From Lama glama (lineage: Eukaryota), in the NCBI GenBank assembly GCA_028534125.1, contig CM052816.1, positions 74,278,001-74,342,000 of the forward strand: a stretch of DNA of 64,000 bases, read 5' to 3'. Shown here one piece after another: positions 4,050 to 59,124 of this stretch. How positions within the stretch are numbered: position 1 is the stretch's first letter; the number at the start of each line of letters is the position of its first letter. The translations under genes were made by a program, and so were the position numbers. The notes beneath the pieces are model-generated. The model was not told where the DNA came from, did no database searches, and worked only from the letters and a program-made list of their open reading frames with translations.

Positions 4050-6120
4050 TGCCAGGAAGATAGAGTAGAAATACTTCCCACGATTTCTCTCACAAAGCAC
4101 AACTAAAAATCAACGATGTTATATAAAAAGCAAACATAAAAATAGTCTGAAAGATAGAAGAAAGGAGACTGACTAGAGACTTCAGAACCTGAGGGACAAC
4201 ACAGTGGTAAGTTCATTGGGTTTTCCTTTGGTTTATATATCCCAGATTTGTAGACAAAGAAGCCAGCAAGTCAGAAGTGCCAGCGAGCGCAGGCGATGGG
4301 GGTGGGGGTGGGGGGCAACAAAAGCCTGCTGTCTCTGGTCAAAGGACCGGGAAAGGGGCAGCCTAGCAAGATATAAAACTTTCAGACAAAAACTACTCTA
4401 CTAAAGCCAAACACCACAGAAAAGAATGTGGTGTCAGCCTTATCCTTGGCAGCAAAGCTGAGTGAGGAGCCTAACCGTCTTCCCTCCCCCGGCTGTAATG
4501 AGGCACCCCAATTCCCCTTCTCATCTGGGGTGGTGTCAGAGAAGGCCAAGTAGGAGCCCAGATTTTCATTAACGACCAGCAGTAACGTGGTTCCCGCCCC
4601 GCCCCCCCGCCCATCCCGCACCGCCGGGGTGATGTTGCAGGAGGGCTCGTGGAGCATCAGGCCCCTCACCATCATTCAGCAGTAAAAGGCCATTTCCACC
4701 GCAGTGTCAATGAAGGACATGTGCGGAGCCAGAGCATCTACTCCTGCCCTGTAGTGACAAGGATTAACCTCTTCCTTGGGTATCAAAGGAGGCCAAGTGG
4801 GGAACTTGGAATTCTTCCAGTGAGCAGTGATAAGATGGTGCTCCCTCTTGCCTCTGCAGGAGCAGTATCATTAAAAAAAAAAAGTTAAAACAGTGTTTAA
4901 ATAAAATCCAGAGTCTCATACCATGTGAAATATCCAGGTTTCAATTTAAAAAAATCATTCATCCTAAGGAAAAAAAAAATCCCTTATCCTACCAAGCAAG
5001 AACCAGAAAGATCTCAAACTGTTTTCAAACAATAGATGCCAATTAAAAGATGACAGAGATAAATGGACAAAGATTATTAGCCTGCTTCATGGAGCAATGA
5101 TGAACATGCTTGAAACAAATGAAAAAAATACAAAGCTTCAGCAAAGTGATAGAAGATATAAAGAAGAAAGAAACAAATGGAAATTTGAGAACTAAAAATT
5201 CAATAACTGAAATAAAAAGCTCTGTGGATGGGTTCAGCAGAATGGAGGGCATGGAATGAGAAAGATGGAAGGATCAGAATAACCCAATTTGAAGAACAGA
5301 GAGAAAATAGAGTAGGAAAACAAAAAGAAAGAACAGAGCCTTAGGAATCTGTGGGACTATAACAAAAGATTTAACATTCATGTCATCATGTAATAGAAAA
5401 GAACAAATCTGACTCCAGATTAGATCTGTTCCTTTAGCTTGTACGCTGTGTTCTAGGCTTAGTCTTGTTAGCTCTGCCCTCATGTAAAGATAACAAGTTG
5501 CAGAATAGAGAATGACCTTTGTTTTGTTGGAGGTTTTGCAGGAGCATCATTACCTGGCCCACTGGACAGCTGCAGCAACAAAGAATTCCTACACCAAGAA
5601 ATTTGTAACAACCAACTACAACCCCTCTCTTGTTTTTTTGTATAAAAGAAGCCTGTATTCTGACTGGAGCAGGATGATTCTCCAAGGCATTAGTCTGCCA
5701 TCCTCTCGGTCTGCCGGCTTTCCAAATAAAATCGCGATTCCTTGCCCCAACACCTCGTCTCCCAATTTATTGGCCTGTCGTGTGGCGAGCAGAATGAGTT
5801 TGGACTCAGTAACAATTAGAGACCCAGAAGGAAAGGAGAATGAGGTCGAAAAAGCACTTGAAGAAATAATGGCTGAAAACTTCCCAAATTTGGTAAGAGA
5901 CATAAACCTGTGGATTCAAGATGCTGAGCTAACTCCAAACAGGATAGGTCAAAAGAAATCAAAATCGATACACATCATAATTAAACTTAAGAAAACTAAA
6001 GACAAATTCTTGAAAACAGCCCCCCCAAAACCTTACCTGTGAGAGAAAAACAATTCAAATGACTGCAGATCTCTCGTCAGAAACCACAGCAGTCAGAAGG
6101 AAGTGGAGTAGCATTTTTCA
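4050..6120 (+). mobile_element. Old LINE-1 5' region and degenerate ORF1
   Basis: ORF1p-like peptide 'LEEIMAENFPNLVRDINLWIQDAELTPNRI' at the end of ORF 5512-6042; A-rich coiled-coil-type sequence at 5050-5380. Confidence 0.8.
5389..5814 (+). mobile_element. Solo ERV LTR inserted in L1 ORF1
   Basis: TG...CA ends, TATAAAA at 5641, AATAAA ~5725, near-TSD atca/atta; homologous to the inverted LTR at 27255-28273. Confidence 0.85.
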
Positions 6121-10876: not shown

Positions 10877-11769
10877 ATGAGGTGGCAGAGGAATGTATCT
10901 CCCAGGCCAAGACACAAGATAAAATCCCAGAAGAAGAAGTAAGTGATGAGGAGATAGGCAATTTATCTGAGAAGGAGTTTAAAGTAATGATGATGAAGAT
11001 GTTCAGAGAACTCAGGAGGAGTATAGATGCACAGAGCGAAGTTTTTAGCGAACAGTTGGAAAAGATAAAGAATACCCAAACAGAGTTAAAGAATAAAATC
11101 ACTGAAATGAATAACACACTAAAAGGAACCAAGAATAGACTAAATGAAGCAAAAGAATGGATCAGTGAGCTAGAAGACAGATTGGTGGAAATCACTACTA
11201 CAGAACAGAAAAAAGAAAAAAGAATGAAAAGAAATGAGGATAGTTTACGAGAACTCTGGGACAACATGAAGTACACTAATATTTGCTTTATAGGGGTCCC
11301 AGAAAGAGAAGAGAGAGAGAAAGGATCTGAGAAAAATTTTGGAGAGATAATAACCAATAACTTACCCAACTTGGGAAAGGAAACAGTCACCCAAGTAAGT
11401 CCAGGAAGTGCAGAGATTTCCACACAGGATCAACCCAAAAAGGAATACACAAGGCACACAGTAATCAAATTGACAAAAATTAAGGATAAGGAGAAAATAC
11501 TAAAATTAGCAAGAGAAAAGCAACAAATAACATATAAGGGAACTCCCATATCAGCTGATTTTTCAGCAGAAACTCTACAGGCCAGAAGGGAGCCGCACGA
11601 TACATTTAAAGTGATGAAAGGGACAAACTTACAACCAAGAATACTCTATCCAGCAAGGCTCTCGTTCAGATTTGATGGAGAAATCAAAAGCTTCACAAAT
11701 AAACAAAAGCTAAAAGAATTCAGTACCACCAAACCAGCTTTACGACAAATGTTAATGGAACTTCTCTAG
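10877..11769 (+). pseudogene. Nearly intact LINE-1 ORF1p with a frameshift near the start
   Basis: 295-codon open frame with coiled coil, RRM and CTD ('ISADFSAETLQARRE','QPRILYPARLSF'); the ATG at 10877 is out of frame with it. Confidence 0.9.
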
Positions 11770-19982: not shown

Positions 19983-20510
19983 ATGGCGCAGAACTTTCCT
20001 CCCTGCGTGCGCGAGGCCTGGGATTCTGCAGCGGAGTCCCAGAAACCGGAGATGCTGCAAGTCTTGAGCTTAGCGGACCTTGCGGACTGGCAACTGCCCT
20101 TCTATCCTAAGCTGGGCCAGCTCTCTTGCTACCAGGAAGACTTGGATTGGGAATGCCTTTCCAGTCCCTGCGGGTTTCTGTGCACTTATTGCCCGAAACA
20201 TGGAGCCCGAGCGCCGAGCATCGGCAGGCGGAGCGCCGGGAGGCCCGCCAGGGGCCCGACGCCCGCGACCCGCTATGGTCCGGAGCCACAGGCGCCCCAA
20301 GAAAAGGCGGTCGCCGCTCCCGCAGCCTCGGTTGGCAGGTGGCGCCGCTTCCTGGGCCGCCTGTTGAAGCCCGAGAACGCTGCCGGCGGGGACCCTTCCA
20401 AGCGTCGCCCTGCTCCTGCCCCCGGGAGGCAGCGGATCCCAAGCAGATTTCGAGGCTGGGGGCGGCGGATCCGACTTGCAGTGGCCCGGAGGACCCGGAG
20501 CTGCGAATGA
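19983..20510 (+). CDS. ANXA2R-like paralogue 1, 175 aa, apparently intact
   Basis: MAQNFPPCVREAWDSA...WQLPFYPKLG...LSSPCGFLCTYCPKH aligns with ANXA2R at 26439; strong Kozak gcgATGG, TATA upstream, AATAAA at 20648-20653. Confidence 0.85.
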   Translation: MAQNFPPCVREAWDSAAESQKPEMLQVLSLADLADWQLPFYPKLGQLSCYQEDLDWECLSSPCGFLCTYCPKHGARAPSIGRRSAGRPARGPTPATRYGPEPQAPQEKAVAAPAASVGRWRRFLGRLLKPENAAGGDPSKRRPAPAPGRQRIPSRFRGWGRRIRLAVARRTRSCE

Positions 20511-23083: not shown

Positions 23084-23437
23084 TCAGGCCCTGTTGAGCT
23101 GCGTGGTCTGTAGCTCTGGCCTCTTCTTGGTGGGACAGTTGTTCCATCCCGGATGAGCCATTGGCTCCTGGGCTTGTGGGTCTCGACAGCGTTTTGGGCT
23201 GCTCTCAACTTGGGGACCGTCTGCATGCTCGGTGCAAGCACGAAGCAGCCTCTCACATGCACCATAGTGCCCGTCCCCGTAGGACTGGGGCATTGGCAGG
23301 AGGGGCGGCTCAGCGCGGGGAAGTTATCCAGAACCCAGGCCCAGGCCTGGTTCTGGGTTCAGGCCCCATGGCATGTGGGGCTCTGGATGTGCCCACCTCC
23401 AAGACAGCTCTTGCAGGGTGGATGCATGGGATTCCAT
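23084..23437 (-). pseudogene. Disrupted copy of the 117-aa divergent ANXA2R-family gene
   Basis: Same 354-nt span as 43026-43379; +1 insertion ~23350 gives TAA at 23324-23326 after 37 aa, then a -1 deletion ~23288; TATA lost; ATTAAA at 22612-22617. Confidence 0.8.
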
Positions 23438-24409
23438 CTCTTCAGCCTTCTTACTGGACTGGGACTAGTTGCCTGTCTAAGCAAAGGGGCAAGTGATTCA
23501 GTCATTTACTGAGTGTGTCTGTCTTGTATAGGACATCAGGAAACCTAAGTTCCAGATAGGTGGGGATAGGCACTCATTTACCTTTCAAATTGCCTTGGAG
23601 CCTCATGGGATAGAGGAGAAAACTGCGTCTTTCTGGGAGGCACTATGGAAATTAAGAGCGGTTTCATTGATGGAGTTAGAGGAGGGGGATGGGAGGAGAG
23701 GAAGTTCCCTGGGGAAAGTTCAGTCCTGGTCGGTTCCACTCCTGCAGGAAAAAACTCTCTACTCAGCAGGCAAAGCTGCCAAATTACACTTCACATGTAG
23801 GTCTAATAATTTAACAGCTCAGAGAGGATTGCCTGATTTTAGAGATGAGGTTCCATGATGGCAGATCCTCGCCAGAATACAAAGCTAGTTTCAGCAGGAG
23901 CTGGATTAAGATACCAGATTTTCATGTAGGCATATCAGGAAGGGAAACAAGTAAAGGAGTGATTAGGTAAGGGTAGGAAAAGGAGAGTGCTTACTTAGAG
24001 TTGTAATATTTCTATTTTTGTCTACAGTAGCTTAGTGGAATCAAAGAGAGATCTCAAGTTTGCCCTGATTTTCATACCTACACGACAAATTGAATTGAGT
24101 GAATGCCATGTTTTTTTTTATCTTGTTGGTAGGACCCCTACCCTATTTTATATGACTATGAATATTCTATCATTAGTGATTCTCATTTCTCTGCTTCCTT
24201 TCTTCCATATAATTTTTCTTGTTAATAACTACTGTACTTTTAATGAGTATTTTGGTAATTTTCAGTGTGGTACTATATAGTATTGTTTTGCATGCCTATA
24301 TATTCAACTTATGTAAAAGCAAATGTGTTCTCTTTAGGCAGTTTAGATAGAAATGAGCACTGGGCAGGGGGAGAGGAAGGGGAAAGGAACAACCCAGAAG
24401 ATAAAAGTG

Positions 24410-24902
24410 TGTCTGCATTCAGGAAAAAGGACTCCAGAAATTTTTACTTTCTCTAAATGAGGGCCAGCAAAAGAAGCCAGTTAAAATCAACACGCTGCAG
24501 CTGTGCGTAAGAGGACCAGACGCAACTTGAACCAATGAACCTGCCCAAAAGGGGATGGGCGTGCCAGAGCGTAGGAATCTGAGTTGTCAATCAACCAGAG
24601 CACAAAGAACCTGAGCTGTCAATCAGCTCCATCACTCAAAGAACCTGAGCCCTTAATCAATCACCAAAAAAAATGCCCCCAAGCCAAGATATAAAAACAG
24701 GAAAAACAAAGGAGCCACGCCATTTTTCCTCTCTTGGATTGGCCCGCTCCCAATTCTCAGGAGTGTACTATCTTTTACTACCTTTTTACTTCACTAATAA
24801 AACATCTTGCTTATGTCACGCTTTCTGTCTCTCATTAAAAATTCTTTTTTTTTCAGGTGACTAAGAACCGAGGTAATTGTTATTTCCCTTTTCCCGGTAA
24901 CA
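24410..24902 (+). mobile_element. Solo ERV LTR
   Basis: TG...CA ends, 5-bp TSD AAGTG (24405-24409 and 24903-24907), TATAAAA at 24690, AATAAA at 24796, short U3 repeats. Confidence 0.88.
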
Positions 24903-25861
24903 AAGTGATTCTTTAGGGTAGCAAATCTAGATATATTAGGGCCTGCAATTTTTAAATCGTAGCAAATTGCGGTTTCCGAACAGTGAGTCCCAGCAGCTCC
25001 TGGTTTGCCACGCCAGTGGAAGCGCCAAGGCCAAAGTATGCCCTTGGCAGAACCCTACCCCTCCCATGTGCCATCGCATTTTGGGCCGAGGACAGCTAGT
25101 GTCCGCCTGATGCCCTCTGATGGTGGTGGGACGGTGAGATTAGCCCTGAGCCACTGTGCCCCTTGGCTATTCCCTTAGTGTCAAGAGATGGGACTTCTTC
25201 TGTCACATTTACCCAAGTCTAGGAGGAAACTCAAAGTCATGACGTTACACGGTGGATTTAAAGTGAAAACAAGGATTTTTTTTTTTTTAGCCATAGAGAC
25301 GATAACTACCGCAGCGGTGTCCAGACTGAAGGGTTTGATTAAAGGGATTTTCATTATTTTAATAAAGTTAAAAATTTCAACCCATAAAATAACATAAACT
25401 AAGTTGAATATCAAGTACGTTAAATAGCAAGACAAGTAAAATTTTTAAATAAATAAAATGGAAAGGTTGTAAAATGTAACGATACTTTTAAATTAAAAAT
25501 GAAAGAATGAAGAGAAATCGAAAATAAATTATCCTCACACTGAGACGGTGTTTTGCTCTAAGGCAGCACCGGTCATTCCTCCACGCAGGGTGGTTTTCGG
25601 GGTCTCAGGCTGCTCCTTTCTGAAAGCCGGCGGTTTCTCTTTGTCTGCACAGCAGATCGCTCTCAAACGGGTAATTTGTCTTGGGCCACAGCACCACTGT
25701 TGACTGCTGCCAGTGCCGCTGGTGTCTGCGGTTTCTCGTCCGCGAGGCGGCCAGCGGCGGCACCGCTCCTTTTGCCCAGAGCGGTGGCTTCTGGTCTCCG
25801 CCGGGGCGCCGACAGCTCCCTGCGTGTTGCAGGGCTCCTTCTCTGTCGGGTTTGCTTATTG

Positions 25862-26438: not shown

Positions 26439-26933
26439 ATGGAGCAGCATTTTCTCCAGCCCGAGAAGGAGGCTTGGAATTGCGCAGAGGTGGAGCCAGA
26501 GCTGCAGCTTCCTGGCGGGAGCCCGGCAGATTCTGGGCCGTGGCCGCTTCCTTTCTACCCGGTACTGGGAGAGTCCTCAGGCCATCGCGGCGATTTCAAT
26601 TACGAACTGCTTTCCAGTCCTTGTCGGTGCCTGCCCTTTGACTTCTTGCCAAACAGACCCAGTCCCAGAGCCTGGAGCACTTTGGAAGCAAGCGCAGCCC
26701 AGCTCACAGCCACAGGAGAGAGGGACCCGGCAGAGGAACCCGACCAACCCCCAACGGGACCTGGTGACAGAGAGCAGGACAGCGGGCCACCTTCGGAGCT
26801 TCACCTTCCTCCCGTCGCCGCTTGGTGGAGCCAGAACCCGCTGGTCTCCGGCTGCTTAGAGTGGATTGGTCGCTCCCTGCATGCCTTGACCTGTGGCTGC
26901 TGCAGGTTCATTTTTGGCGCTAAGGAGCCCTGA
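26439..26933 (+). CDS. ANXA2R: Annexin-2 receptor (ANXA2R/C5orf39) orthologue, 164 aa
   Basis: MEQHFL...AW...GPWPLPFYPVLGE...LLSSPC...AEEPD...CLEWI...CC..I.GAKEP matches human ANXA2R as I recall it at both ends; gcgATGG Kozak; GC box and CATAAATA at 26346; AATAAA at 27006-27011. Confidence 0.9.
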   Translation: MEQHFLQPEKEAWNCAEVEPELQLPGGSPADSGPWPLPFYPVLGESSGHRGDFNYELLSSPCRCLPFDFLPNRPSPRAWSTLEASAAQLTATGERDPAEEPDQPPTGPGDREQDSGPPSELHLPPVAAWWSQNPLVSGCLEWIGRSLHALTCGCCRFIFGAKEP

Positions 26934-37575: not shown

Positions 37576-39508
37576 TTCTAGACTTGAGAAAATAGCTGCC
37601 TGCTAGATACCTTGCTGTTTCACAGTCTCAATACTGAATTACATAAATTAGCAATTGTGTAAGAAATTTTGCCATCATAGACATTTATGAAAATTCCTTT
37701 TGCTTGCTTGATAGATTCTACAAAAATTCCAACATCCTTTTCTTTTTATATATACCCTGGGTTCCTGCTTTGGCTGTTGGGGAAGGACAAGGAGCTGAGG
37801 CAGGGGTGGCTGGTGTCATTCAGGTTCAAGACAGAAAAAAAAAAAGGAAAGAAAGAAAAAGAAAAGAAAACTGAAAAATGGAGCACACACCCCCATTACT
37901 AGAAATAGTTATAGGTAATGGCAGCAGCAATCTATGCCAGAAAAGCTTTTTCTCTAACAATGAAATGGATAGTGAAATACTGCAAAGACCCCAGCTTTCT
38001 ACCAGCAAAGAGCACTTCTATGGTATTCAGCATTGCTAGTCAGTTTCACAGCCAAAAACAACCTAAGACCATAATTTTACATATTGCTAGTACACTGTTT
38101 AGTACCAAACTTATTCTACAATATTTAATAAAAGACTGGTGTCTAGATGTATATTATAATTTAAAACGTAGGGAATTATAAAGTGACAATAAGAGCTTGC
38201 CTGATAGAGTGTAACACTGTCTGCTTGGTCTATAACAGTCCCAGTAATCAATCATTCCTACTACTGCTACTTTGGATAGAATACACTGTAGCATATTTTG
38301 GTGTCAAATAAGTTTTGCAAAGAAATTTACACACAAAAGGGTAGAGGGCATAAAACTCTGAATTTTAGAATTGCTAAAGGAACTGTAAAACTGGGTTACA
38401 TACTGATTGAGCCACAATATCCAGTCTGCAGAGGTGGCATATGGAAGGAATCCTGGCAGGGAAAAGGGTGGGGATGACAGAAACTAGAGAGGTGAGGCGG
38501 AAGGATTGTGGGAAATAATTCCGGAGGGAGGAAGCCCCTGCTTTCAGGGATATGTGAGCTTAATCCCAGTGCAGGATTTTGCCCCCAGAGAAAACACAGC
38601 AGCTGAGAGAGTCTCAGAATAATTGTAGTTAACATTATTCACCCTTTACACTTTGCCTGACATTCTGTCAGCGCCGCTTTTCAACCCCGAATTTGGTGGT
38701 TGCGATAGTTCAACACTATCCGGAAAAGAGAAGGCAAGGGCCTTGGAGAGTCGCCAGTTTGAAAGTGGGATATGAAGCGAGCCTGATCGCTCCAGAATCT
38801 GGCCACAGAAACCCCACACTACAAAGGACAATTGCTGGCTTTCCGGTGTCCAGGTACCAAGGCCTTCCCACTCTGCCCCAGCTCATTGCCTCCAGGTCAG
38901 CTCGGAGGTGCCAGCTGGAAATCAGGTTTCTGTAGAGTCAGAGGAAGGAAGGACGCGCCCAGGAAAGTGCCTAAGGGAAACAGAAGCCCTGCACTGCTGG
39001 AGGCCAATGCTTCTAGATGTCTTTGGGCAGCAACAGTCTCTGGAAGACTAGGAGCAACTGGTTGGTGCCGCAGGTGGACTGGGAGGGGAAAGGTCCAGGG
39101 CAAGGGAGCAGGAGTATTTCTCAGGCTAAGCGGAGTTCTCAGGGATGCTGGCTGCTCTTTGCTGGATCTCTTGGAGCGCAGCAAGTGTAACTCTGACAAC
39201 GGCTATGCTGGACCCCTGACAGCCGGGTATGCCCAGGAGACCCCACCGACTTTTCCCCGTGCAGCAAATCAGGAGACAGTGGGTCCCGCGCTAGGACGGC
39301 ACCAGACACTCCCTCCGCTGCTCCTCCTTGCTTCCCCCAAAGCTAAAGTGGAAACACATGAGAGAGGGAAACGTTGGAATTTCGTGTAATTTATTAAGTA
39401 AGCGAAAGAAAAACTCACAAATGTCTATGAAGACAAATTCTTATATGATTGCCAAACTGAGAGGTGTTATTGTAACATCTGTCGCAGGGGATCGTCTAAT
39501 GAAGGATC

Positions 39509-40050
39509 TCAGCGGAGATGAGGGCTCTTGCGCCGAAAGGCTGCAGGGGAGGCAGCCCAAGTTCTTGGCGACTGCGCATTGGTCCGCTGCCACTTGTCTT
39601 GAGACTTCGAGTGGTGTCTCCCCAGGCCAGGAGGAGGGCGATGCTCCAGATGGCTCTTTGAGGTCAGAGGTCTCGGGATCCAGATTTTGGGTCCTCGATG
39701 TTGGAAGACCAGCCCAGAGAAGCTTTGGGGGCGGGCGGCGGCCGCCTCTTCCTCGGGCGCCTGTGGCTCCTGGCGTGTCGTGGGCTTTGGGTCCGGGGTG
39801 GGCAGCGAGGTTCTCTGCGCTCTGGGTCCGTGTTTGGGGCAGTAAGCGCGCAGAAACCCGCAGGGGGTAGAAAGTAGTTCCCTATTGAAGTTCTGGTTGT
39901 CCCAAGAGAGGTGGCCCAGCTTAGGATAGAAAGGGAGCTGCCATAACTCAGGGTCCACTAAGCTCAAGATTTGCAGCATCTCTGGTTTTCCTGGGGCTTC
40001 TCTGCAGAATCCCAGGCTTCCTGCACGCATTGAGGAAAGTTCTGCTCCAT
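39509..40050 (-). pseudogene. ANXA2R-like paralogue 3, frameshifted (possibly rescued by an alternative ATG)
   Basis: ATG 40050 reads MEQNFPQCVQEAWDSAEKPQ, then a +2 frameshift ~39988 gives TGA at 39964; the other frame continues KPEMLQILSL...WQLPFYPKLG...STPCGFLRAYCPKH; TATA degraded; AATAAA at 39390-39395. Confidence 0.8.
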
Positions 40051-43025
40051 CCCTTCCGCCACCGAGAGGGGGAAAAGTTTTCAGGGATTCCCTTCCTTTT
40101 GAATTATTATTCTGGGCTCTTATGCTTCCAACTAGAGAGTATTAGGGTGGATGGTGCGGTTTTCCTCAGCTTGGTAATTGCTTCAAAAGGCGGGACCTGT
40201 GGAGATTAAGGGAAAATCCAATCATCTTGGATGGGGCTGTTCCAAGCTGAATTGATTTTGTTGATTCAGAGAATTAAAGTTTTTGTGCTGTTGTTGTTTG
40301 TTTTTAAAAGAATGACAGGTAGAGGGGCTCTGTCAAGACAAGTTATTTGGAAGGTTAGTCTTTTATGAAAAGTATCCTAAATGTCTGACCCTTTTAGGGG
40401 AACTGTATATCCACTGATTCTCAGGGCCCTTCTGTTTGGAAAGTACTGTCAGATTTTACCTAGATGATCAGAATGAGACGTTGGCCATCTTTGCATGAAA
40501 TCACACTACTGTCAGTGAGACAAGTCAGACTCACACCCTGGGCTTCTGTTGTGGATTTCTAAGTCAAAACATTTTCAGAATTTTAGTCAACATGTAGGAG
40601 GGGAGGGATCAAGGTCTCGAGAGAGCCAGACACAGACCGTTTGGGTACAAGTTCTATCATTTCTGTAAGACTCAGCTAGTCATCTGGCCTTTCTTGCCTT
40701 CACACTTTTACCTGGACGACAGCTAAAATTTAATGTTTTACAAGGTAGCTTTCATGATTAAATTGGATAACAAAGGCCAAATAATTAGATATCCCAGGCA
40801 GAAAAGAAGTTGTTCAATTACAAATATTATTTTCATTATCATTCTTAGTGAGATGAGCATGGACATAAACATAACATCAATGAATAACAAACCCTAAATG
40901 CTGTCTTTTTGTGTGTGTTTAATCTTAGTGGACCGCTTTTGCCTTCTTGTGTCAAATCGATAGTGAAATTGCATTCCTTTACATCCTTCCTCAGATGTTC
41001 AAACACTCTGTTGGCAAACATGTCAGTGCATCCAAGCCTAGATTTCCTTCATCAGTCATTTATCTATCTAAACAAAGTCAGTTTAATTCAAAGAATTTTA
41101 AATGAGCACGTTTTGACAGCCTGCCGCGAGCAGGGTGCTGTGATGGGTGCTACATACACAGAGCTGTAGAACTGGCTCCTGCTTTGGAAGGTCTCACTTC
41201 TAAGGGGAGAGCAGAGTCCCAGTTAAGAGACCATGAAGACACAGCCAAATATTGTTTCCTATGGTGGTCGGCTTGATGCCAGGAATGAAAACTCTAAAGT
41301 TTAAGATGTTTGAGAGGACTCCACAAAAGCCAGTCTTTTTGCACAAGGTGAGGAGAAAAGACAATGGTAGGGATAAAAGTGAGAAAAAAGGAAACAGAAA
41401 TAAAGAAGACAATCAACATCAAAAAATGAGAAATAAGTAAATAAAGAAAGTGGATTCAAGTATGGACCACACAAGAGGCAGAGGGTTGGAAACTCTGGTC
41501 AAGACAGCCAATAGAGGGAGGTTGAAGGGGTTCGTTGGAGCAACTTGAATCTTTGCAGCTGACTTGGGGGTATGAAGTAATTCAAGCCAGAAAGCTCTGC
41601 TGGGCCAGGTTTAAGGGAAAGACAACAACTCTGTTCCCTTTGAAGTCTCAGCAGTGAGCTTATTGGCTCTGGTGCTGCAGAACCTTCTCAGAGAGTTGTT
41701 TGAACACCACTAATTTCCCCCAGAGGGTCAGGGGCAGCTAGCCTGTGTTACAGCTGCACCAGAAGGAAGCCACTACAGTGAGAACCAGCAATGTGGTCAG
41801 ACTGCAGATGATACCAGTCACCAACAAAGTGGAGATCACCTGATTTCAGACAAGGTCTACCCATTATTACATGCAGTTGTGATGTCTTAATATCTCTTTT
41901 AATCTGCAAAAGTTCCCCATCTCTTTTATTTTTCCCTTTCATTTTTTTTCACAGAAAATTGTATAATAAGCACAATGTCCTACCTATTTTTTTTTAAAAT
42001 ACTTTTCTGAGTATCAAGAATAGAAACATTCCACTGACCCTGTGAGCCAGCAGGGAGCAAACTCATTCTTCACTTTTGGGCATGTGAAACAGCAAGGTGT
42101 CTACCAGGTAGCTACTTTCTCAGGACAAGAATGAGGGGATTTCAAGATGGGAAGGAAGAAAGAGTATTTCAAGGATTCTACAAATGATCATTGAAATTGA
42201 TGTGCAATAATGTAGATGGATTTGAATAAAATCAGTCCATTTCTATACCAACAATAAGTTTTCATCAGTTTTTAGGGAAAAGGGTGGCATAGGAGAATAT
42301 ATATTTATGAGAAGAGGTCACAAGAATACATGTAGGCAGGGATGGGCTTCCCCTGCTGAGAGACAGCAGTGAACTGTTAGGGTCATCGTGTCCTGGCCAC
42401 TCTAGTAGTCAAAGTTATATGTCATTGCTTCACTTTGCATTTGTTTAATCTTATTGAGCCCTGACCTGGGTCCTAGCTCCCCTTTGAGGCACGGGCCCAC
42501 CTCCCCACCCCACCCACTTCGAATCCTGGCTCCACCCACTCAATCAATTGCACAGGCAGAGGATAAGGAAACAGGATTTAATCATTGTTCACAACTGGAA
42601 TACACAAGAAGCATGACAATTCCGAGTAAATCTACTAGAAAGGTTCTTAAGATAGTATAGATTCCACGAAGAGATATTTCTAATTGAAAAACCTGTCAAT
42701 AATCCAGGAAGAAAAGGACAAGTAAGGAATGTTCTGCACCAGAAACTTCAAGGCTCAACCCCTAGCAAGGCTGGGGCCAGGGGTTAAGTCCAGCCAGGTA
42801 GAATGAGGGCCTCCATTGGGGTGACTCAGTGACTCCAGTCCAGGGCATGGGTTGAAGGGTCGCCTTGGGGTAAGCACAAGGCTGTGATCCTTTCCTTGTC
42901 GAGTTCCAGCCTCAGTTTTCAGAAACTTCGGGGTTGGGGTGGGAGGTGGCCTGTCTTGGACTCCTGGGAGGTGATCTGGCCACAAGTCTGTCCACCTCCG
43001 GTGCTGCTGGCATTTCCTGGCTGTT

Positions 43026-43379
43026 TCAAGCCCTGTTGAGCTGCGCGGCCTGTAGCTTTGGCTTCTTCTTGGTGGGACTGTCGCTCCATCCTGGATGAGC
43101 CACTGGCTCCTGGACTTCTGGGTCTCGACAGCGTTTCTGGCTGCTCTCAACTTGGGGACCGTCTGCATGCTCGGTGCAAGCATGAAGCGGCCTCTCACAT
43201 GCACTATAGTGCCCGTCGCCGTAGAACTGGGGGCATTGGCAGGAGGGGCGGCTCAGCGCAGGGAAGTTATCCAGAGCCCAGGCCCAGGCCTGTTCTGGGT
43301 TCAGGCCCCGTGGCATTTGGGGCTCTGGATGTGCCCACCTCCAAGACAGCTCTTCCAAGGTGGATGCGTGAGGTTCCAT
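43026..43379 (-). CDS. Divergent ANXA2R-family protein, 117 aa, apparently intact
   Basis: gcgATGG Kozak; TATAAAA at 43462-43468; ATTAAA at 42577-42582; W13, WALDNFPAL and SACERPLHACTEH have the same spacing as the other family members. Confidence 0.72.
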   Translation of the reverse strand: MEPHASTLEELSWRWAHPEPQMPRGLNPEQAWAWALDNFPALSRPSCQCPQFYGDGHYSACERPLHACTEHADGPQVESSQKRCRDPEVQEPVAHPGWSDSPTKKKPKLQAAQLNRA

Positions 43380-43527
43380 CGCTTCAGTCTTCTCACCAGG
43401 CCAGGACGAGTTGCCTGTCCAAGCAAAGGGAGGAATGATTCAGTTCGGTACTTACTGCAACTTTTATAGTGTCTGTCTTGAACAGGGCGTTGGAAACCCA
43501 AATCCAAATAGGTGGGGATAGACACTC

Positions 43528-43542
43528 ATTTGCATTGCAAAT
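43528..43542 (-). promoter_or_regulatory. Octamer / PORE-like palindrome
   Basis: ATTTGCATTGCAAAT contains a perfect octamer ATGCAAAT on the minus strand, ~60 bp upstream of the TATA box. Confidence 0.6.
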
Positions 43543-45017
43543 TGCCTCGGAGCCTCATGGGGTTGAGCAGGAAAATGCATCTTTCTGGGAGGTGCTAGGA
43601 GAAATTACGAAAGGTTCCGGTGATTAAGTTGATGGAGGGGGTTGGGAAGAGAGCACGATCCCTTGGGAGAGAGGTAGATTCCTGGTCGTTTCAATTTATT
43701 GGAAAAGGCCTCGCTACTTGGGAGGCACCCCTAGGCAAAGTCACCCAGTTATGGAGTAGGAATTTCAAGGAGCACCACCATTCCAAACCCAGAAGCGCTC
43801 GAAGCATCCTGTCACGGCAGGGGAGGCTGGTTTTCGGGCCAGTCCAGGGTCATTATCCCCTTAGCTTCTACGCCAGCTATCTGGCAGCAGGTCAGTTCAG
43901 CCAGTCCCTGGCAGGCGTTGGACAAGAAGGTTGCGGAGAGTCGGAGGAGTAAGGGGCACTTGTTGGGATTAATTATCGCCTGAGGGTAAACTGGAGGAGT
44001 TCAGGGAGGGGTGGGAGGAATGCGGCGGATGCAGCCGCAGAGCCGCGTGCAGATGCTCAGAAGGCGTGCCTGCTGTTCTGGGAGGCCCAGCGCGGGTCGG
44101 AAAGTCAGATGTAAAGGCCACGCTCCACCCCATTCCCTTCCCCAACCCATCCTCCTCAGCCGGTGTGCACGGGAGACCCCGCGCCCAGCAAAGCCCAGAG
44201 ACCAAAGAGCCGGCACCAGCCACCGCCGCCCGGGAGCCTCGTCTTCCCAACAGGCAAACCAGGGACTCTCGGGAAGAATCACGGACTGTGACACCGTTTG
44301 TCGTCAACTTTATTGAGAAGCGAAAGCGCAGTTACTATTTTTGGAGTTCACATTGTGTTAAATGTATGCCTAAGGGAGCGGGCCATTAAAGACTTTGATA
44401 TGGTGGGTACTGTAATTAAATTACATTTTCTTAATGAGGAAAATGAAGCAGAAGGGATCAGCTCACTTCTGGAAGGCACTATTGAAACTCCATGGGTTTT
44501 GATGATTGCATCAAGCAGAGGTAGGGTTGTGGGGCGAGAAGGGTCTAGTTACTGACAATTTCCATAGGATATAGAAAGCCTCTCTGTGTTTCAGACAAGC
44601 CTGGACAAATTACACTCAGTAATTCTCGTATCAGAGCGGCATTGCCTGATTGTAGAGAGTAGATTCCACGAGATTAGATCATAACCCAAGATCACACAGA
44701 TAGTTCCTGCTGGACTGAGAACATAGGTCCTCAAGCATATGCCAGGTAGGGGAATTAGCAAAGGAATAATTAGGCTGGATTGGGAATAGCAAAGACTTGT
44801 GCCTACCTAGAATCGTAATTTTTCTACATTTGTTGACGCTAGATTACCTGAATCAAAGGAACATTCAAAATTGCTATGTCTTTCATACCTAAAGACAACT
44901 GGGTTGAGTTAATGTCACATTTTCTATAGTGGTTTTTGCTGACCCCTATCCTCTTTTAGGTAATTATGTGTATTCTATTCTTAGTTATTCCCCTTATTTG
45001 CTTTCCCTCTTCCACTG

Positions 45018-45517
45018 NNNNNNNNNNNNNNNNNNNNNNNNNNNNNNNNNNNNNNNNNNNNNNNNNNNNNNNNNNNNNNNNNNNNNNNNNNNNNNNNNNN
45101 NNNNNNNNNNNNNNNNNNNNNNNNNNNNNNNNNNNNNNNNNNNNNNNNNNNNNNNNNNNNNNNNNNNNNNNNNNNNNNNNNNNNNNNNNNNNNNNNNNNN
45201 NNNNNNNNNNNNNNNNNNNNNNNNNNNNNNNNNNNNNNNNNNNNNNNNNNNNNNNNNNNNNNNNNNNNNNNNNNNNNNNNNNNNNNNNNNNNNNNNNNNN
45301 NNNNNNNNNNNNNNNNNNNNNNNNNNNNNNNNNNNNNNNNNNNNNNNNNNNNNNNNNNNNNNNNNNNNNNNNNNNNNNNNNNNNNNNNNNNNNNNNNNNN
45401 NNNNNNNNNNNNNNNNNNNNNNNNNNNNNNNNNNNNNNNNNNNNNNNNNNNNNNNNNNNNNNNNNNNNNNNNNNNNNNNNNNNNNNNNNNNNNNNNNNNN
45501 NNNNNNNNNNNNNNNNN
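45018..45517. other. Assembly gap (500 N)
   Basis: Run of N. Confidence 1.
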
Positions 45518-45686
45518 ATTCCTGAAGTCCTTGCTGCTGAAGATCTCAGTCCCCAGCTGTGTGTGGCCAGAGCTGGGTGGATCTGGCCAAGAGAGGCTGC
45601 CAGGGCAGGCATCTGTCCATGTGCTCTGCAGCGCTCTGCTCTCCTGGGGCGGACTCTGACTCCTGCTGGCTCTTGGGTGTTGACTC

Positions 45687-45962
45687 CTAGGCAGACAGGT
45701 TTAGATCTGGTTCTAAAGTGGTCTGGGCTCTATACAAGTGTCTGTGCCCAGGGCAGGCCCAGCTCAATAGCCCACATGGCGTGGAAAGCAGTTCCCAGTT
45801 GAAATGTGGATTGCCCCACCAGGGCTCCCCCAGTCTGGGGTAGAAAAGGAGTGGCCATGGCCCCAAATCTTCTGAACTCAGAGACAAAGACACCTGGGGT
45901 TCCAGTGCTATCTCCACAGAATTCCAAGCCTGCTTCACACAGAGGCAAAAAAGCTGGGGCAT
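45687..45962 (-). pseudogene. ANXA2R-like paralogue 4, 91 aa, probably nonsense-truncated
   Basis: MPQLFCLCVKQAWNS...GPWPLLFYPRLGE...LLSTPCGLLSWACPGH; TATAAAT at 46044-46050; ANXA2R-like frame continues past the TAG; 3' end falls in the gap. Confidence 0.75.
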
Positions 45963-48489
45963 GACTTCAGCCTCTAGATCTGGAGACTGGAGAATCTGGG
46001 CTGAGAGAGGAGGCAAAGGACTGAGCACTCATTCAGTATGGGAATTTATACTGTTCGGGCTCTTGGGCAATCCCAAATTAGAGTGCATTAGGTAGGGTGG
46101 TGGCATTGCTTTTTGAGACAAATTGCTTCAGACGGCTGAGAGTGATGTTGTTAAGTCCAAAGTGTAATCCTATCGGGTGCAATTTCATAAAATTGAATTG
46201 GAATCAGTTCAGTTATTAATTGGATTAAAGTTAAAAATAAGAAAGGCTACATATGGGGTTACTGATTAAGAAAAGCCAGATGCTTTGTTTCCTTTATGTA
46301 ATGTCTGATGTTCACAGCACCTCCGCCAGGCAAGTGTCCTCTGCTTGTCCGAAGGCTTAAATCATTACCAAAATCAAAGCACAAGTTATGCTGGAGCTGA
46401 GATGGAAATGTGAAAGAAGAAGGTTTCAGTGGGGCGGACTGTTTGGAGAGGAGATGGGGACCGAAGTAATTGACCAATTCTCTACTCTTCACATGGGCTC
46501 CCAACTTCCTGTCTGGGTCCTCTACTTTGAACTCCTAAATTCCAAGGATTGAGAGAAGAGAAGGCAGGGAGGGAAAGGAAAGAGGAGCTTTAGATATCAA
46601 ATGATTAAATGGTTTGGGTTCCAATCTTGTTTCCTCCTTTACTAAACATATGTGATTATCATTTAAACTTTCTAAGCTGCAGTTAAAAAAAATCTATGAA
46701 GTGAGGACAAAACCCTCACTAATTTCAAAAAGTAGCTTTGAGTACTTAAAAAAATAATATAGGTAAGGTGACAGCTTCTCACACAATATAATGAATAACT
46801 TTGTAAGGGTATAATCATTATTATTTGATCAACACTGTACAATAGAAAGATAATCCCAGTGGAGAACAAATAGAAAATGTGGCTTTTAAAAACATCCCTG
46901 CTGTAAGTATATTGGATCCACAGTAAAGCTGTAACAAGTATTGCTACCCTCCATTTAGCATCTTCCATGACTAATTCTCCAATGTCATAAACTTTGCACA
47001 ATCAATTTAACAAACATATATTGAGAGCCTGCTTTTTGTCAGGTGTTATGAAAAGAGCTACACATATAAGGACAACGGAGGCTCATTCTTCCTCTCCTGC
47101 CTGAAGCAGGGGCAGAATTCTGCAGTCCCAGAGCTCCAGCTTGAAAGGGCTCAGGGGCTGCGGGATTTCTCCACATGGGAAACCGCTTTCAGAAAGAGCT
47201 CAGAACAGAGAGGAAGGTGGATGCAGCACAGACCGAGGTCATGAACATAAGATACACGCTTCAGCGTGGGGCCATTTCTTTTCGGTACCCTTCATTTCTA
47301 TGCATTTAAAACGTTTTCTGAATCACACCACTGCATTTGTTCAATAATAATGTAAGGAGATTTGTCCTCACTGGTTTTATAGATTGTGAGGGAATGTTTT
47401 TCAATGAAATTTTATTCCCCACCTCCAAAGTAAGTCATTTCATTGATTTATTTGTTTAGATGTCAAGCAGGAGAGCAAAAACACTTAGTTAATGGGAAAA
47501 TGCAAGTCCTTTGCACTCACCTTTTGCCTTCCAGGTTAAGCCTTAACATGTATTTGAAAGTACTAGCTTGCATTTCAAATCTAAGTTTGCTTTAAATAAG
47601 ACTAGTGGCCCAATTGTACAGTATTATTAGCTAATGGTAAGAAACAAAAGACATTCACATTGAAAATTAGCATGCAGAACCATTAAAGGAACAAAGTTTA
47701 AGCCTGACACAAGAATGGGGAAGATAGACAGAGTAGATCTTAACTGTTTTCAACACACACACACACACACACACCCCAATACACAACTATGTGAAATGGT
47801 GGGCGTGTCAATTTGATTGTTGTCATTTCACAATGTATACAGCCTGTTAAATAATTACGTTGTACATCTCCAAGTTAAAAAAAGAGTGGGAGCATAGAAA
47901 GAAGTTTGAACCAGAGAGAGAGTTTTCCTCCAGATGAGAGAATCAGGTTTCCACTCTGTTCTCTCCCCTCCAGTCACTCAATCATTTCTGACAACACAAA
48001 CACACTTAACTAATTCTTTTATCTCACATGGCACACACAGCCATGTCAGGATAAAAATTCTAACACCAGTAAAACGATAACCATTATAATTGGGGGCAAT
48101 TTAAAAAATCTTAGGTCTATCTCACTAGAGAGAAATTGTAAAATTACTGTCTTTTAAAGTCACTTGAGCTAGTTCCTCTTTGTGTGGTTATGATACCAAC
48201 TTGTTACACATTTAGGATCTTTTTTGTTTGTTTTAGTTTTAAAGAATTATTTTACATAATTAAAAAACAATTTTTGAAAGTATTAAAAATTTTCCCAAAC
48301 CAGTTCTACAATTATATTTAGAGGAGTTTAGCTTCTATCCAAGTGTCCTCCACTCTGTTATATATATTTATATGTAAATATATATAAAAGTATATATTTA
48401 AAGAGAGAGAGACTGCCTTCTCCCTTGGCTACAATCCTTCCCCCATTCTACGAGATCCCATAAAGGAGTTCTCACTAATCTTCTCTCTT

Positions 48490-51349: not shown

Positions 51350-51810
51350 GTATTTTTTCTTTATTGGAATACAGTTGATGTACAATACTATGTTAGTTTC
51401 AGGTAGACTGCATAGTGATTTGACACTTGCATATATTATGAAATGATCACCACAATAAGTCTAGTAACCATCTGTCCCCATACAAATTTATAACAATATT
51501 ATTTGCCATATTCCTCATGCTTGGTCCCATGGTTTGTTTATTTTATAACTGGAGGTTTATACCTCTTAATTCTTTTCACCTATTTTACTCCCCCTTTTGT
51601 CCCTTCTGGCAACCAGCTGTTTGTTCTCTGTATCTAAGAGCCTGAGTCAGTTTTTGTTTTGTGTTTTAAATTCCATATATAAGTGATCATGCAATATTTG
51701 TCTTTTGTCTTTCTCTGTCTGACTTATTTTACTTAGTGTGACACCCTGTAGATCTATCCATGTTGTTGAAAATGGCAAGATTTCATTTTTCATGGCTGAG
51801 TAAAATTCCA

Positions 51811-51883
<73 letters not shown>

Positions 51884-53200
51884 CACATCTTCTTTATCCA
51901 TTCACCTGTCAATGGACACTTAGGTTGCTTCCATACCATGGCTACTGTAAATAACACTGCAATGAACATTGGTGTGCTTTTATCTTTTGTTTTCTTCAGG
52001 TAAATATTCAGAAGTAAAATTGCTAGATCATATGGTAGTTCTATTTTTAATTTTTTGAGGAGCCTCCATACTGTTCTCCACAGTGGTTGCACTAATTTAC
52101 AAACCCACCAGCAGTGCACAAGGGTTCCCTTTTCTCCACATCCTTGCCAACACTCGTTATTTCTTGTCTCTTTGGTGATAGCCATTCTGACAGGTGTGAG
52201 GTGGTATCTCATTGTGGTTTTGATTTGCATTTCCCTGATGATGAGTGATGCTGAGCATTTATTCACGTGCTTGTTGGCCATCTATATATCTTTGGAAAAA
52301 TGTCTATTCAGGGCCTCTGCCCATTTTTAAACCAGGTTGTTTTTCTAATGTTGAATAGTATGAGTTCTTTGTATATTTTGGATATTAACTCCTTATCAGC
52401 TATATCACTTGCAAATATCTTCTCCCATTCATAGGTAGTCTTTTCATTTTGTTGACAGTTTCCTTCACTTAACAAAAGCTATTTAGTTTGATATAATTCT
52501 GTTTGTTTAATTTTGCTTTTATTTCCCTTGCCTGAGGAGACAGATCCTAAAACATACTGCCAAGGCTGATGTCAAGGAGTGTATTGCCAATAAGCTAGAG
52601 GGTGGATTCCAAACGGTGCTTGACAGCTCTGGTGTTATCACCACAGAACAAGCTCCCCCACAACGGCCGCCGCCAGCATCTCCATCCGTAGAGGGAGTCC
52701 TAGCTGTCTCCTGCCTCTCCAGGAGGCTCTTCAGGATCAGCTAAGTGGGTCTGACCTAGGCACCTTTCAAACTGCTGCCTTTGCTCTGGGACTTGAAGCA
52801 TGTGAGATTTTGTGAAAGCCCTTTAATAGGTAGTATCAGTTTCTTTAACTCTCTGGTTCTCCTGAGCGTAAGCCCTGCTGGTTTTCAAAGCCAGAATTTC
52901 TGGGGATTTGTCTTGCTGGTGCAGAGCCCCTGGGCTGGGGAGCCCAATGTGGGGCTCAGACCCCTCACTCCTTGGGGAGGACTCCTATGATTATGATTAT
53001 CCTCCCACTTGTGGGTTGCTGGCCCTTGTCTCTGCCCCTCCGACCCTTCCTACTGTGGTTCCTTCTATATGTCTTTAGTTGTGGAAAGTTTTTTCCTTAG
53101 TCTTTAGGTTGCTCTCTAAGTAGATACAATTTTGGTGTGTCCATGGGATTAGGTGAGTTCAGGGAGTCCCCACTCCACTGTCGTGGCCACCTCCCCCTTC
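51350..53200 (-). mobile_element. LINE-1 fragments with an internal (TG)n(TA)n microsatellite
   Basis: ORF2 C-terminus '[19 protein letters not shown]...[16 protein letters not shown]' in ORF 51790-52281. Confidence 0.88.
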
Positions 53201-53874: not shown

Positions 53875-55237
53875 AGATGGTCTCTGACTTACGATTGTCT
53901 GACACAAATTTGCAACTTTATGGTGATGCCATACACGTTCATTAGAAACCACACTTTGTTTTATTTAGTTATTTCTTAATTGAAGTATAGTCAGTTTACA
54001 ATATTGTGTCCATTTCTGGTGTGGAGCATAATAGTTCAGTTATACATATAAAAACATATATTCATTTTCATAGTCTTTTTCATTATAGGTTACTACAAGA
54101 TATTGAACATAGTTTCCTGTGCTACACAGTATAAACTTGTTATCTATCTGTTTTATATACTGCAAATACTGAACTCCCAAACCACAAGCTTGTTTTCTAT
54201 GTCTGTGAGTCTGTTTCTGTTTTGTAAATAAGCTCATTTGTGTCTCTTTTTAAAATTTCAGGAAGGATATCATATTGTATTTTTCTTTCTCTTTCTGGCT
54301 TTCTTCACTTAGAATAACAACCTCCAGGTCCATTTATGTTGCAGCAAATGGCATTATTTTATTCTTTTTTTATGGCCGAATAGTATTCATTGTATAAATA
54401 TACCACAACTTCTTTATCCAGTCATCTGTTGATAGACATTTCTGTTGCTTCCAAATCTTCGCTATTGCAAATGGTGCTTCTGTGAACATTTGGGTGCATG
54501 TATCTTTTCGAATTAGAGTTCCCTCCAGAATATATGCCCAGGAGTGGGATTGCTGGATCATATAGTAAGTCTATTTTTAGTTTTTTGAGGAATCTCCGTA
54601 CTGTTTTCCCTAATGGTTGCATCAAAATACATTCCCACCAACAGTGTAGGAGGGTTTCCTTTTCCCCACATCTTCTCCAGCATTTATCATTTATGGACTT
54701 TTGAATGATGGCCATTCTGACTGGCGTGAGGAGATACCTCATTGTAGTTTTGATTTGCATTTCTCTAATAATTAGTGATGTTGAGAATTATTTCATGTGC
54801 CCATTGGCCATTTGTATGTCTTCACTGGAGAATTGCTTGAGAAATCACACTCTGAATTTTGGTATTTTCCTGGACTAGTGATATGCCACTGCTGGGCAGT
54901 GGCAGCTCCAGCTCCAGCGCATGTGATCATGGGGATAAACAACTGATACACTTACAACCATCCTGAACCCCTACAACCATTCTGTTTTTCACTTTCAGTG
55001 AAGCAGGCAATACATTGCACAAGTTGTTGAACATTTTATTCTAAAATAGGCTTTGTGTTAGATGATTTTGCCCAACTGTAGGTCAGTGTAAGTGTTCTGA
55101 GCACATTTAAGGTAGGCTAGGCTAGGCTATGATGTTTGGTAGATGAGATGCATTAAATGCATTTTTGACTTACAGTATTTTCAACTTACAATGGGTTATT
55201 AGGATATAACCCCATTATAAGTTGAGGAAGATCTGTG
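53875..55237. mobile_element. Tigger3-like DNA transposon interrupted by an L1
   Basis: Ends 'cagatggtctctgacttacga' and 'taagttgaggaagatctg' form degenerate TIRs. Confidence 0.7.
53958..54838 (-). mobile_element. LINE-1 3' end
   Basis: ORF 54422-54760 '[19 protein letters not shown]...[11 protein letters not shown]'. Confidence 0.9.
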
Positions 55238-57119: not shown

Positions 57120-57144
57120 TACAGGCGCCTCCCGCGGGGCTCCC

Positions 57145-57198
<54 letters not shown>

Positions 57199-58120: not shown

Positions 58121-59124
58121 TTTACCTTCTTCCTTCCCCACTGTCTCCTTTATTCTCTTCCAATGAGCATGTTCCTTTCTCGGATCGCTCTCCTTGGCAT
58201 TTTCCATCCTCCCTGGAAAAGGATGCTGCGGGAAAGGAACATTCAGGTTGTTTAACATTCATAAGTTGGAGTCTGAGGAAAGTTCACCTTGAAGCTATTG
58301 AGACTTGAGCCTTCAGGCAGTGTAAAATTTGCAAAATTTTCTTTTTTAAAAGATACCCCTCGACCCCCACCAACTTATATAAACCTGCTCCACAAAACCT
58401 TGATGCGCCCTTGGCTGGAGTCGTTGGAGGTAAGAGTGTGTTGGGAGATTTTAAAAGATGCACGTGTAATAGAGATGCTGGAGAGCGAGAAGGAACTGCA
58501 GTGTCCTGATGGGGAAGGGGGTCACTTTAGACTAAACGCAAAGCTCAAGATGACCCAGAGAAGCCCGTGTGCCGCCGGCTTTCCTTTCTCTCTCGACTGT
58601 TTCAGGTCCTCCCTTGTGCTTGTAATTAACAATACTGATTTATACTTAAAAATTTTGCTAAGTGAAATCTTACCTTAAGTGTACTTGTCAAGGGAACTTT
58701 TGGAGGTGATAGATATATTTGTGACATAGATTGTGGTTTTTACTAATGTATACCTGTCTCCAAACTGATCAAGTTGCTTACATTAAATAGGTATGCTTTT
58801 TGTATGTCATTCATACCTCAATAAAATGGATTCTAGAAAAGCTACATCACTGGTCTAATAACTCTTCCTGTATCAACCATTTAAAATGTAGTTATATTGG
58901 CAGAAGTGAAAATTCAGAGACCGTGTTAGTAAAACTTTTTTAGAAACTTTACTAAAGGACTTCAATTTTTCTCGGACAAATTGCATCCAATCTTAATGTA
59001 AGGACCTAGAATTCTAGCCCCAGGCAGCATCTTTTGGGAGGAGGGCAGGAGAGAGAATTATCTCCACAAGTACTAGTTTAGCAGTCTTACCTGTATTCAT
59101 GTGTCATGAGTTGTGACACCCCAT

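What the first reader, a model, noticed from the sequence alone, without database searches (positions are those of the whole stretch)
20088..20201. C-x6-C-x2-H motif kept in all paralogues but absent from ANXA2R itself
Seen: CGFLCTYCPKH (paralogue 1), CGFLRAYCPKH (3), CGLLSWACPGH (4) and CERPLHACTEH (117-aa gene). ANXA2R has CRCLPFDFLPN here and instead carries a hydrophobic Cys-rich C-terminus (CLEWIGRSLHALTCGCCRFIF). Inference: the ancestral protein has a zinc-binding site, perhaps completed by Cys8 or a partner protein, and ANXA2R is the derived member.
Basis: partly seen in the sequence, partly recalled or inferred. Interest (0 to 1): 0.7.

Follow-up and report, generated by a model that had tools for sequence, protein, structure and literature searches.

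The report
Likely zinc clasp in RESIST paralogues
Unstudied sister genes of the interferon regulator RESIST (ANXA2R) keep three cysteines and a histidine across many mammals, which RESIST never has as a set, and these likely bind a zinc ion in proteins predicted to dock on the same mRNA-decay complex but mostly without RESIST's active tail.

Summary
The motif is there as described. It lies in a tandem cluster of ANXA2R/RESIST-family genes in a camelid-like genome. The family has three subfamilies. In type B (paralogues 1, 3, 4) Cys8, Cys63, Cys70 and His73 are all kept in 34 of 39 tree-defined rows, one with His replaced by Cys; 34 of 47 if eight degenerate rows I dropped are added back. Canonical ANXA2R (type A, with elephant and armadillo) has the motif in 0 of 32. 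"All paralogues" is too strong: the 117-aa family (type C) lacks Cys8 and keeps the motif in only 10 of 22, and two of the five local copies are frameshifted. A Cys3His zinc site is the best reading (about 0.6) but is untested: AlphaFold gave no confident fold (pLDDT 54-60). Loss in ANXA2R is favoured (about 0.6) only if the root lies on type C; nesting of A in B is not supported by an AU test. The hydrophobic C-terminus is the CNOT1-binding helix that RESIST needs; paralogue 1 retains a degenerate copy, so the ancestor probably had both and the subfamilies lost complementary halves.

The parts
19983..20510 (+). Paralogue 1, type B, 175 aa, single exon, intact; TATA-like box 57 nt upstream and AATAAA 138 nt downstream
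   Evidence: (PF15721, 54 bits, cut-off 27)
20004..20006 (+). Cys8 of paralogue 1, candidate fourth metal ligand, on the predicted N-terminal helix
   Evidence: 37 of 39 type B rows; helix 4-14 in the AlphaFold model of paralogue 4
20088..20117 (+). W36-x-L-x-F-Y-P-x-L-G segment shared by all three subfamilies; inferred CCR4-NOT anchor
   Evidence: column counts in A, B and C
20169..20201 (+). C63-x6-C70-x2-H73 motif of paralogue 1
   Evidence: 34 of 39 type B rows
20370..20504 (+). Degenerate homologue of the ANXA2R C-terminal helix region in paralogue 1 (residues 130-174)
   Evidence: type A C-terminal HMM, 8.7 bits, E 0.006 among 71 sequences
23087..23437 (-). Paralogue 2, broken type C copy; motif at 23225-23257
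26439..26933 (+). ANXA2R/RESIST orthologue, type A, 164 aa; lacks C70 and H73 equivalents; hydrophobic Cys-rich C-terminus from about 26847
   Evidence: (PF15721, 97 bits)
39509..40050 (-). Paralogue 3, type B, frameshifted near codon 21 here; intact 179-aa orthologue in Camelus (P0001, P0069); motif at 39830-39862
43026..43379 (-). 117-aa gene, type C, distant homologue without Cys8; motif at 43167-43199
45687..45962 (-). Paralogue 4, type B, 91 aa; 91-aa relatives with the same end exist (one cluster named as raccoon dog); motif at 45744-45776, Cys8 at 45939-45941

Best explanation
Cys8, Cys63, Cys70 and His73 are conserved as a set in the type B sister proteins of ANXA2R/RESIST and likely bind one zinc ion, which would clasp the short N-terminal helix to the helix after Cys63 in an otherwise disordered protein. 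The loop so closed holds the W36/LPFYPxLG segment that all family members share and that is inferred to dock on CCR4-NOT, since RESIST without its C-terminus still binds the complex. The ancestor of types A and B probably carried both the clasp and the C-terminal helix; type A (RESIST) kept the helix and replaced the clasp region with aromatic residues (W64, Y/F70), while most type B genes kept the clasp and let the helix decay. Type B proteins would then act as natural RESIST-delta-C forms: they would occupy CCR4-NOT without displacing tristetraprolin, and so tune or compete with RESIST. Shown: conservation, subfamily split, complementary retention. Inferred: zinc, the clasp geometry, CCR4-NOT binding by type B, direction of loss. 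My odds: metal site 0.6; loss in ANXA2R 0.6; type B binds CCR4-NOT 0.6; the whole model 0.4.
For: Type B, defined on a tree built without the ligand columns: C8 37/39, C63 36/39, C70 36/39, H73 35/39, all four (His or Cys last) 34/39; type A 0/32. The four sites are among the 11 slowest of about 83 columns; at average rate, 0 of 3000 simulated Cys sites were kept in 35 or more of 39 tips and 1 of 3000 His sites. One divergent row (P0230) swaps His73 for Cys, the exchange expected of a metal ligand (own knowledge). Codons differ silently between local copies (TGC/TGT at 63, CAT/CAC at 73), and third positions in the motif are hardly more alike than elsewhere between paralogue 1 or 4 and the 117-aa gene (7/13 and 6/13 against 16/42) and less alike between paralogues 1 and 4 (4/13 against 19/42), so recent DNA conversion does not explain the sharing. 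Type C is homologous (HH-suite probability 95.7, E 1e-8) and carries the three-residue motif in 8 of 13 rows; the most clock-like root is on the type C stem (root-to-tip CV 0.20 against 0.48 on the type A stem). The C-terminal homologue is found in 29 of 32 A and 6 of 39 B rows; 3 of 5 B rows that lost the motif keep it against 3 of 34 that kept the motif (Fisher p 0.019, rows not independent). PMC12310523 section 8: RESIST binds CNOT1/CNOT9 directly, the C-terminal region is needed for function, and the truncation still co-precipitates CCR4-NOT.
Against: No structural support: two AlphaFold runs gave mean pLDDT 53.7 and 59.5, pTM 0.26 and 0.19. A 54-residue gap between the first two ligands matches no Pfam zinc family. 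With rate variation allowed, a single Cys reaches 36 of 39 in 7% of simulations and a His 35 of 39 in 6%, and seven non-ligand sites (P42, L44, L66, W13, L38, G64, A12) are at least as well kept as Cys63 and Cys70. I dropped 35 of 119 rows by eye before the tree; 8 of them look type B and none has the canonical set, giving 34 of 47 (read). The two rows that lose all four ligands also lose other conserved sites (6 and 5 of 10 kept), so co-loss is not specific. Type C lacks Cys8 (1 of 13) and keeps the motif in 10 of 22. The AU test found a better tree with type B monophyletic (lnL +16.9, p 0.805). All named type B rows are laurasiatherians, whereas named type A rows include elephant and armadillo. 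Expression of paralogues 1 and 4 was not shown.
Confidence: 0.4

Rival explanations
1. The three-residue motif binds zinc, but the fourth ligand comes from another chain (a homodimer, a sister paralogue or a CCR4-NOT subunit); Cys8 has a separate role.
For: Type C keeps C-x6-C-x2-H without Cys8 (8 of 13) and has its own invariant Cys47 (23 of 23). Type A keeps Cys8 in 8 of 32 and Cys63 in 21 of 32 without the other two.
Against: In type B Cys8 is as well kept as the other three (37 of 39), which an intramolecular site explains most simply.
Confidence: 0.15
2. No metal: the Cys, Gly, Leu, Pro and His form a short linear binding motif, or the cysteines are S-acylation or redox sites, in a disordered CCR4-NOT-binding protein.
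For: No confident fold; neighbouring G64 and L66 are as conserved as the cysteines; type A ends in a cysteine cluster beside a hydrophobic helix, which resembles acylation sites (own knowledge); the site is labile in type C.
Against: Three Cys plus one His retained together, a C-x2-H knuckle-like ending, and a His-to-Cys exchange (P0230) are not expected of acylation or of a plain linear motif.
Confidence: 0.3
3. A metal site exists but was gained in the type B/C lineage after duplication from an ANXA2R-like ancestor; ANXA2R is the ancestral form and type C is a fast-evolving offshoot of B.
For: Type A alone is named from elephant and armadillo; B monophyly is not rejected; no outgroup was found among the 100 hits of the representative search; Y70/C70, N73/H73 and W64/G64 are each one base apart.
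Against: It needs about 1.3 changes per site on the type C stem against 0.17 on the type A stem; some B rows keep the A-type tail, as expected of an ancestor with both.
Confidence: 0.15

Closest known systems
RESIST / ANXA2R (Pfam PF15721; Witt et al. 2025, PMC12310523)
   Same: Same family, same tandem locus, shared N-terminal A-W-D-S and W-x-L-x-F-Y-P-x-L-G segments.
   Different: Characterised members are type A-like and described as a single human gene or two identical mouse genes; type B keeps C8/C63/C70/H73 and mostly lacks the C-terminal helix. The paper has no occurrence of 'cysteine' or 'phylogen', and the 'zinc' passages shown concern tristetraprolin.
Tristetraprolin-type CCCH zinc finger (C-x8-C-x5-C-x3-H; spacing recalled)
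   Same: Three Cys plus one His as ligand set; same pathway, since RESIST competes with tristetraprolin on CCR4-NOT.
   Different: Spacing here is C-x54-C-x6-C-x2-H; no Pfam zinc-finger match; no tandem fingers; no sign of homology.
MARTRE1-6 (Yang et al. 2025, PMC11696134)
   Same: Small tandem-duplicated mammalian proteins found through CNOT9 that inhibit CCR4-NOT.
   Different: Mouse chromosome 6 cluster, embryo expression, NOT-module binding; the paper does not mention ANXA2R or zinc. Homology untested: the supplement with the protein alignment was too large to read.

Membership tests
Annexin-2 receptor family PF15721 | Score above the curated cut-off of 27 bits | tested here: met
   Paralogue 1 54.1, ANXA2R 96.7, paralogue 3 36.4, paralogue 4 67.6 bits.
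Annexin-2 receptor family PF15721 | Same cut-off for the 117-aa gene and its family | tested here: not met
   0 of 23 type C rows match PF15721; homology rests on profile-profile comparison.
RESIST (functional type A) | C-terminal helix region required for Ifnb1 mRNA stabilisation | tested here: not met
   6 of 39 type B rows match the type A C-terminal HMM at E<0.01; paralogue 1 weakly, paralogue 4 not at all.
RESIST (functional type A) | Direct binding to CNOT1/CNOT9 | not testable with these tools
   No whole CNOT9 sequence was at hand (only exons) and the complex predictor was not available.
Tristetraprolin-type CCCH zinc finger | C-x8-C-x5-C-x3-H spacing and a Pfam zf-CCCH match | tested here: not met
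   Spacing differs; only PF15721 matched at E up to 10.
Structural Cys3His zinc site | Four Cys/His residues conserved together | tested here: met
   34 of 39 tree-defined type B rows; 34 of 47 with dropped rows.
Structural Cys3His zinc site | Ligands converge in tetrahedral geometry | tested here: inconclusive
   AlphaFold models low in confidence and coordinates not returned; no fold match.
Structural Cys3His zinc site | Stoichiometric zinc binding lost in ligand mutants | not testable with these tools
   Needs bench assay.

The most novel reading that the evidence does not exclude
RESIST is one branch of an unrecognised three-subfamily cluster of placental CCR4-NOT modulators. The type B branch, down to a conserved 91-residue microprotein, is a zinc-clasped CNOT9 binder with a new C-x54-C-x6-C-x2-H spacing that lacks RESIST's effector helix and acts as its natural competitor, making interferon mRNA stability in bats, whales, pigs and camels sensitive to paralogue dose and possibly to zinc or redox state.
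Probability: 0.2. Interest if true: 0.8.

Novelty: new variant of a known kind. Interest (0 to 1): 0.52.

Why it matters
RESIST was shown in 2025 to stabilise interferon-beta mRNA by blocking tristetraprolin on CCR4-NOT, and is treated as a single gene. Databases give the same name to type B genes (for example camel and sheep 'annexin-2 receptor' entries) that lack the functional tail and carry a conserved Cys3His set. If these bind zinc and CCR4-NOT they are natural separation-of-function variants, and the 91-aa paralogue is a minimal construct for finding the N-terminal docking site that the RESIST paper left open. Livestock, bats and cetaceans would have an extra layer of interferon control that mouse and human work would miss. 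I found no description of the subfamilies or the motif in searches (open-access library only; listings seen, not all texts).

Tried and rejected
AlphaFold2 on paralogue 4 with 45 and 47 rows: only short helices, low confidence; Foldseek on the second model: one row at E 8.4. ESM Atlas: no usable hit for paralogue 1 or 4. PDB sequence search: 7 rows, all histone H3 tails at E 0.84-2.5, taken as chance. Expression: RNA contigs of two runs from a relative about 95% alike cover ANXA2R and paralogue 2, paralogue 1 only at depth about 1, and nothing in 39300-46300; one raw-read run gave 0 reads; absence in contigs is no evidence. Idea that paralogue 4 is a truncated pseudogene: rejected, 91-aa relatives end at the same place. 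Idea that the paralogue 3 frameshift is an assembly error: rejected, two other runs of the best-holding organism show no indel there. Idea of recent conversion of the motif between types B and C: no DNA sign. Upstream 59-codon extension of paralogue 1 (from 19806): rejected, the TATA-like box lies inside it and homologues start at the second ATG. Nesting of type A within type B (98/85): not upheld by the AU test after removing the motif segment. MARTRE homology: not testable. Hubel et al. 2019 was not held. Earlier findings: none returned.

Full report
Observation. The quoted stretch is W36-H73 of an intact 175-aa ORF at 19983-20510. All four quoted motifs and the ANXA2R sequence are as described, and a fifth copy lies in paralogue 2. 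The pattern occurs 9 times in 127,996 six-frame residues of the window, 5 of them in register in these homologues. Four of the five intact or near-intact ORFs pass the Pfam cut-off for PF15721; the 117-aa gene does not. The own-genome search finds PF15721 only in this window (5 matches of 22 candidates scored). The nearest named protein is from Camelus ferus and is the intact orthologue of paralogue 3, so the genome is camelid-like. Exons that I recognise from recall as ZNF131 lie to the left in L025.

State of the local genes. Paralogue 1, ANXA2R, the 117-aa gene and paralogue 4 have open frames and TATA-like boxes 57-93 nt upstream. Paralogue 3 has a 2-base insertion near codon 21 and paralogue 2 a frameshift, a stop and a compensating frameshift; neither has a TATA-like box within 120 nt. 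Two other runs show no indel in paralogue 3, so the break is real. Paralogue 4 is short but not truncated: 91-aa relatives with the same end exist, one cluster named as raccoon dog. Paralogue 1 looks mosaic: its first 75 residues are closer to the paralogue 3 type (51 of 75 with P0001, 39 with P0172), its last 76 closer to P0172 (42 against 23); its motif is therefore not independent of paralogue 3's.

What the family is. PMC12310523 (seen: abstract, passages, sections 8 and 10 whole) renames ANXA2R as RESIST, a direct binder of CNOT1 and CNOT9 that blocks tristetraprolin and stabilises Ifnb1 mRNA. A C-terminal helix is predicted to bind CNOT1; deleting the region after D161 removes activity but not CCR4-NOT binding (preprint seen as passages). 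The review PMC12746107 (passages) adds nothing on paralogues.

Subfamilies. Searches gave 31 relatives of the four-sequence profile, 22 of the 117-aa protein, 100 representatives and cluster members. 250 of 256 sequences matched the N-terminal HMM and were reduced to 119 at 85% identity. I dropped 35 rows by eye as partial, degenerate or redundant and built a tree of 84 without the ligand columns: type C 13 rows (100/100), type A 32 rows (100/96, with elephant and armadillo), type B the other 39. Type C is homologous to B (probability 95.7, E 1e-8) and A (92.9).

Conservation. Type B: C8 37, C63 36, C70 36, H73 35 of 39; all four, with His or Cys last, 34 of 39. Type A: motif 0 of 32, with W64 in 26 and Y or F at 70 in 22-23. 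Type C: motif 8 of 13, Cys8 1 of 13; 10 of the 22 cluster representatives; its invariant core is a different, Trp-rich segment ending in Cys47. Eight of the dropped rows look type B and none has the canonical set, so the harsher count is 34 of 47 (read). Simulation on the type B tree (length 18.4) shows such retention is impossible at average rate but occurs for 4-7% of single sites once rate variation is allowed, and several non-ligand sites are equally conserved. The sign most specific to a metal is the His-to-Cys exchange in P0230, a single long-branch row. Co-loss of the ligands is not specific.

Structure. AlphaFold2 gave helices at about 4-14 and 64-69 and no confident packing; there is no fold or PDB match and no Atlas lead. 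The complex predictor was not available. Whether Cys8 meets the other three, in one chain or two, is therefore open.

Polarity. With the root on type C, type A sits among motif-bearing rows and loss is the simplest reading; that root is the most clock-like (CV 0.20 against 0.48). But with the whole motif segment removed, a tree with monophyletic B scores higher than the free search and is not rejected, no outgroup was found, type C is labile, and all named B rows are laurasiatherian; the unnamed long-branch B rows cannot be placed by taxon. I put loss in ANXA2R at about 0.6. Because type A includes elephant and armadillo, the difference predates the placental radiation if type A is one clade (92% of bootstrap trees). 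DNA gives no sign of recent conversion of the motif between B and C.

Tail and clasp are complementary. The type A C-terminal HMM matches 29 of 32 A rows and 6 of 39 B rows, among them paralogue 1. P0166 has both features; the two B rows with the best tails (P0186, P0202) have lost the motif. This fits an ancestor with both and reciprocal loss, although A/B recombinants would look the same.

Expression. In two RNA runs of a relative, contigs cover ANXA2R and paralogue 2, with a splice-like join 23471-25538; paralogue 1 is barely covered and paralogue 4 not at all. Protein conservation, not transcript data, is the evidence that type B genes are functional.

Mechanism and verdict. Most likely a Cys3His zinc clasp in disordered CCR4-NOT-binding paralogues that mostly lack RESIST's effector helix and so may compete with it; every functional step is inferred. 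A metal-free motif (0.3), an inter-chain site (0.15) and gain in B/C (0.15) are the rivals. MARTRE (PMC11696134; seen: abstract, sections 6, 16, 34, one supplement search) is an analogue; its alignment supplement could not be read and may bear on homology. Real, apparently undescribed in the searched library, a new variant within a known family; interest 0.52.

Noticed in passing
window 45687-45962 (-): Paralogue 4 is a 91-aa microprotein made only of the N-terminal domain; 91-aa relatives with the same end occur in other mammals.
   Followed up: partly
window 43026-43379 (-) and 23087-23437 (-): Type C family has no Pfam match, an invariant Trp-rich core and 22 relatives, mostly unnamed or 'uncharacterized' (cats, reindeer, ibex named); a third, broken copy lies on G000 contig C114653.
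   Followed up: partly
window 19983-20510: Paralogue 1 appears mosaic: N-terminal half like paralogue 3, C-terminal half like P0172; DNA similarity to paralogue 3 ends at 20317.
   Followed up: partly
window 23471-25538: Splice-like join (CT..AC on the + strand) in two RNA runs of a relative, ending 34 nt before the ATG of paralogue 2 and starting towards the ANXA2R promoter, which suggests a divergent transcript.
   Followed up: no
window 39509-40050 (-): Paralogue 3 is frameshifted here but a second ATG at 40030 opens a 173-aa frame that keeps the motif and lacks the Cys8 helix; both broken copies also lack the TATA-like box.
   Followed up: partly
window 42810-43511: Contig depth roughly doubles over the 117-aa gene in two runs: cross-mapping from paralogue 2 or an uncollapsed extra copy.
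   Followed up: no
window 45018-45517: The 500-N gap is bridged by 1817 letters in two runs.
   Followed up: no
window about 20220-20260 (+): The basic stretch after His73 in the type B profile resembles the histone H3 tail at E 0.84, probably chance.
   Followed up: no
window 5512-6042, 10987-11769, 51790-52281, 54422-54760; GC-rich island about 57000-58300: ORFs that look like LINE-1 ORF1/ORF2 fragments (recalled) and a GC-rich island with simple repeats.
   Followed up: no
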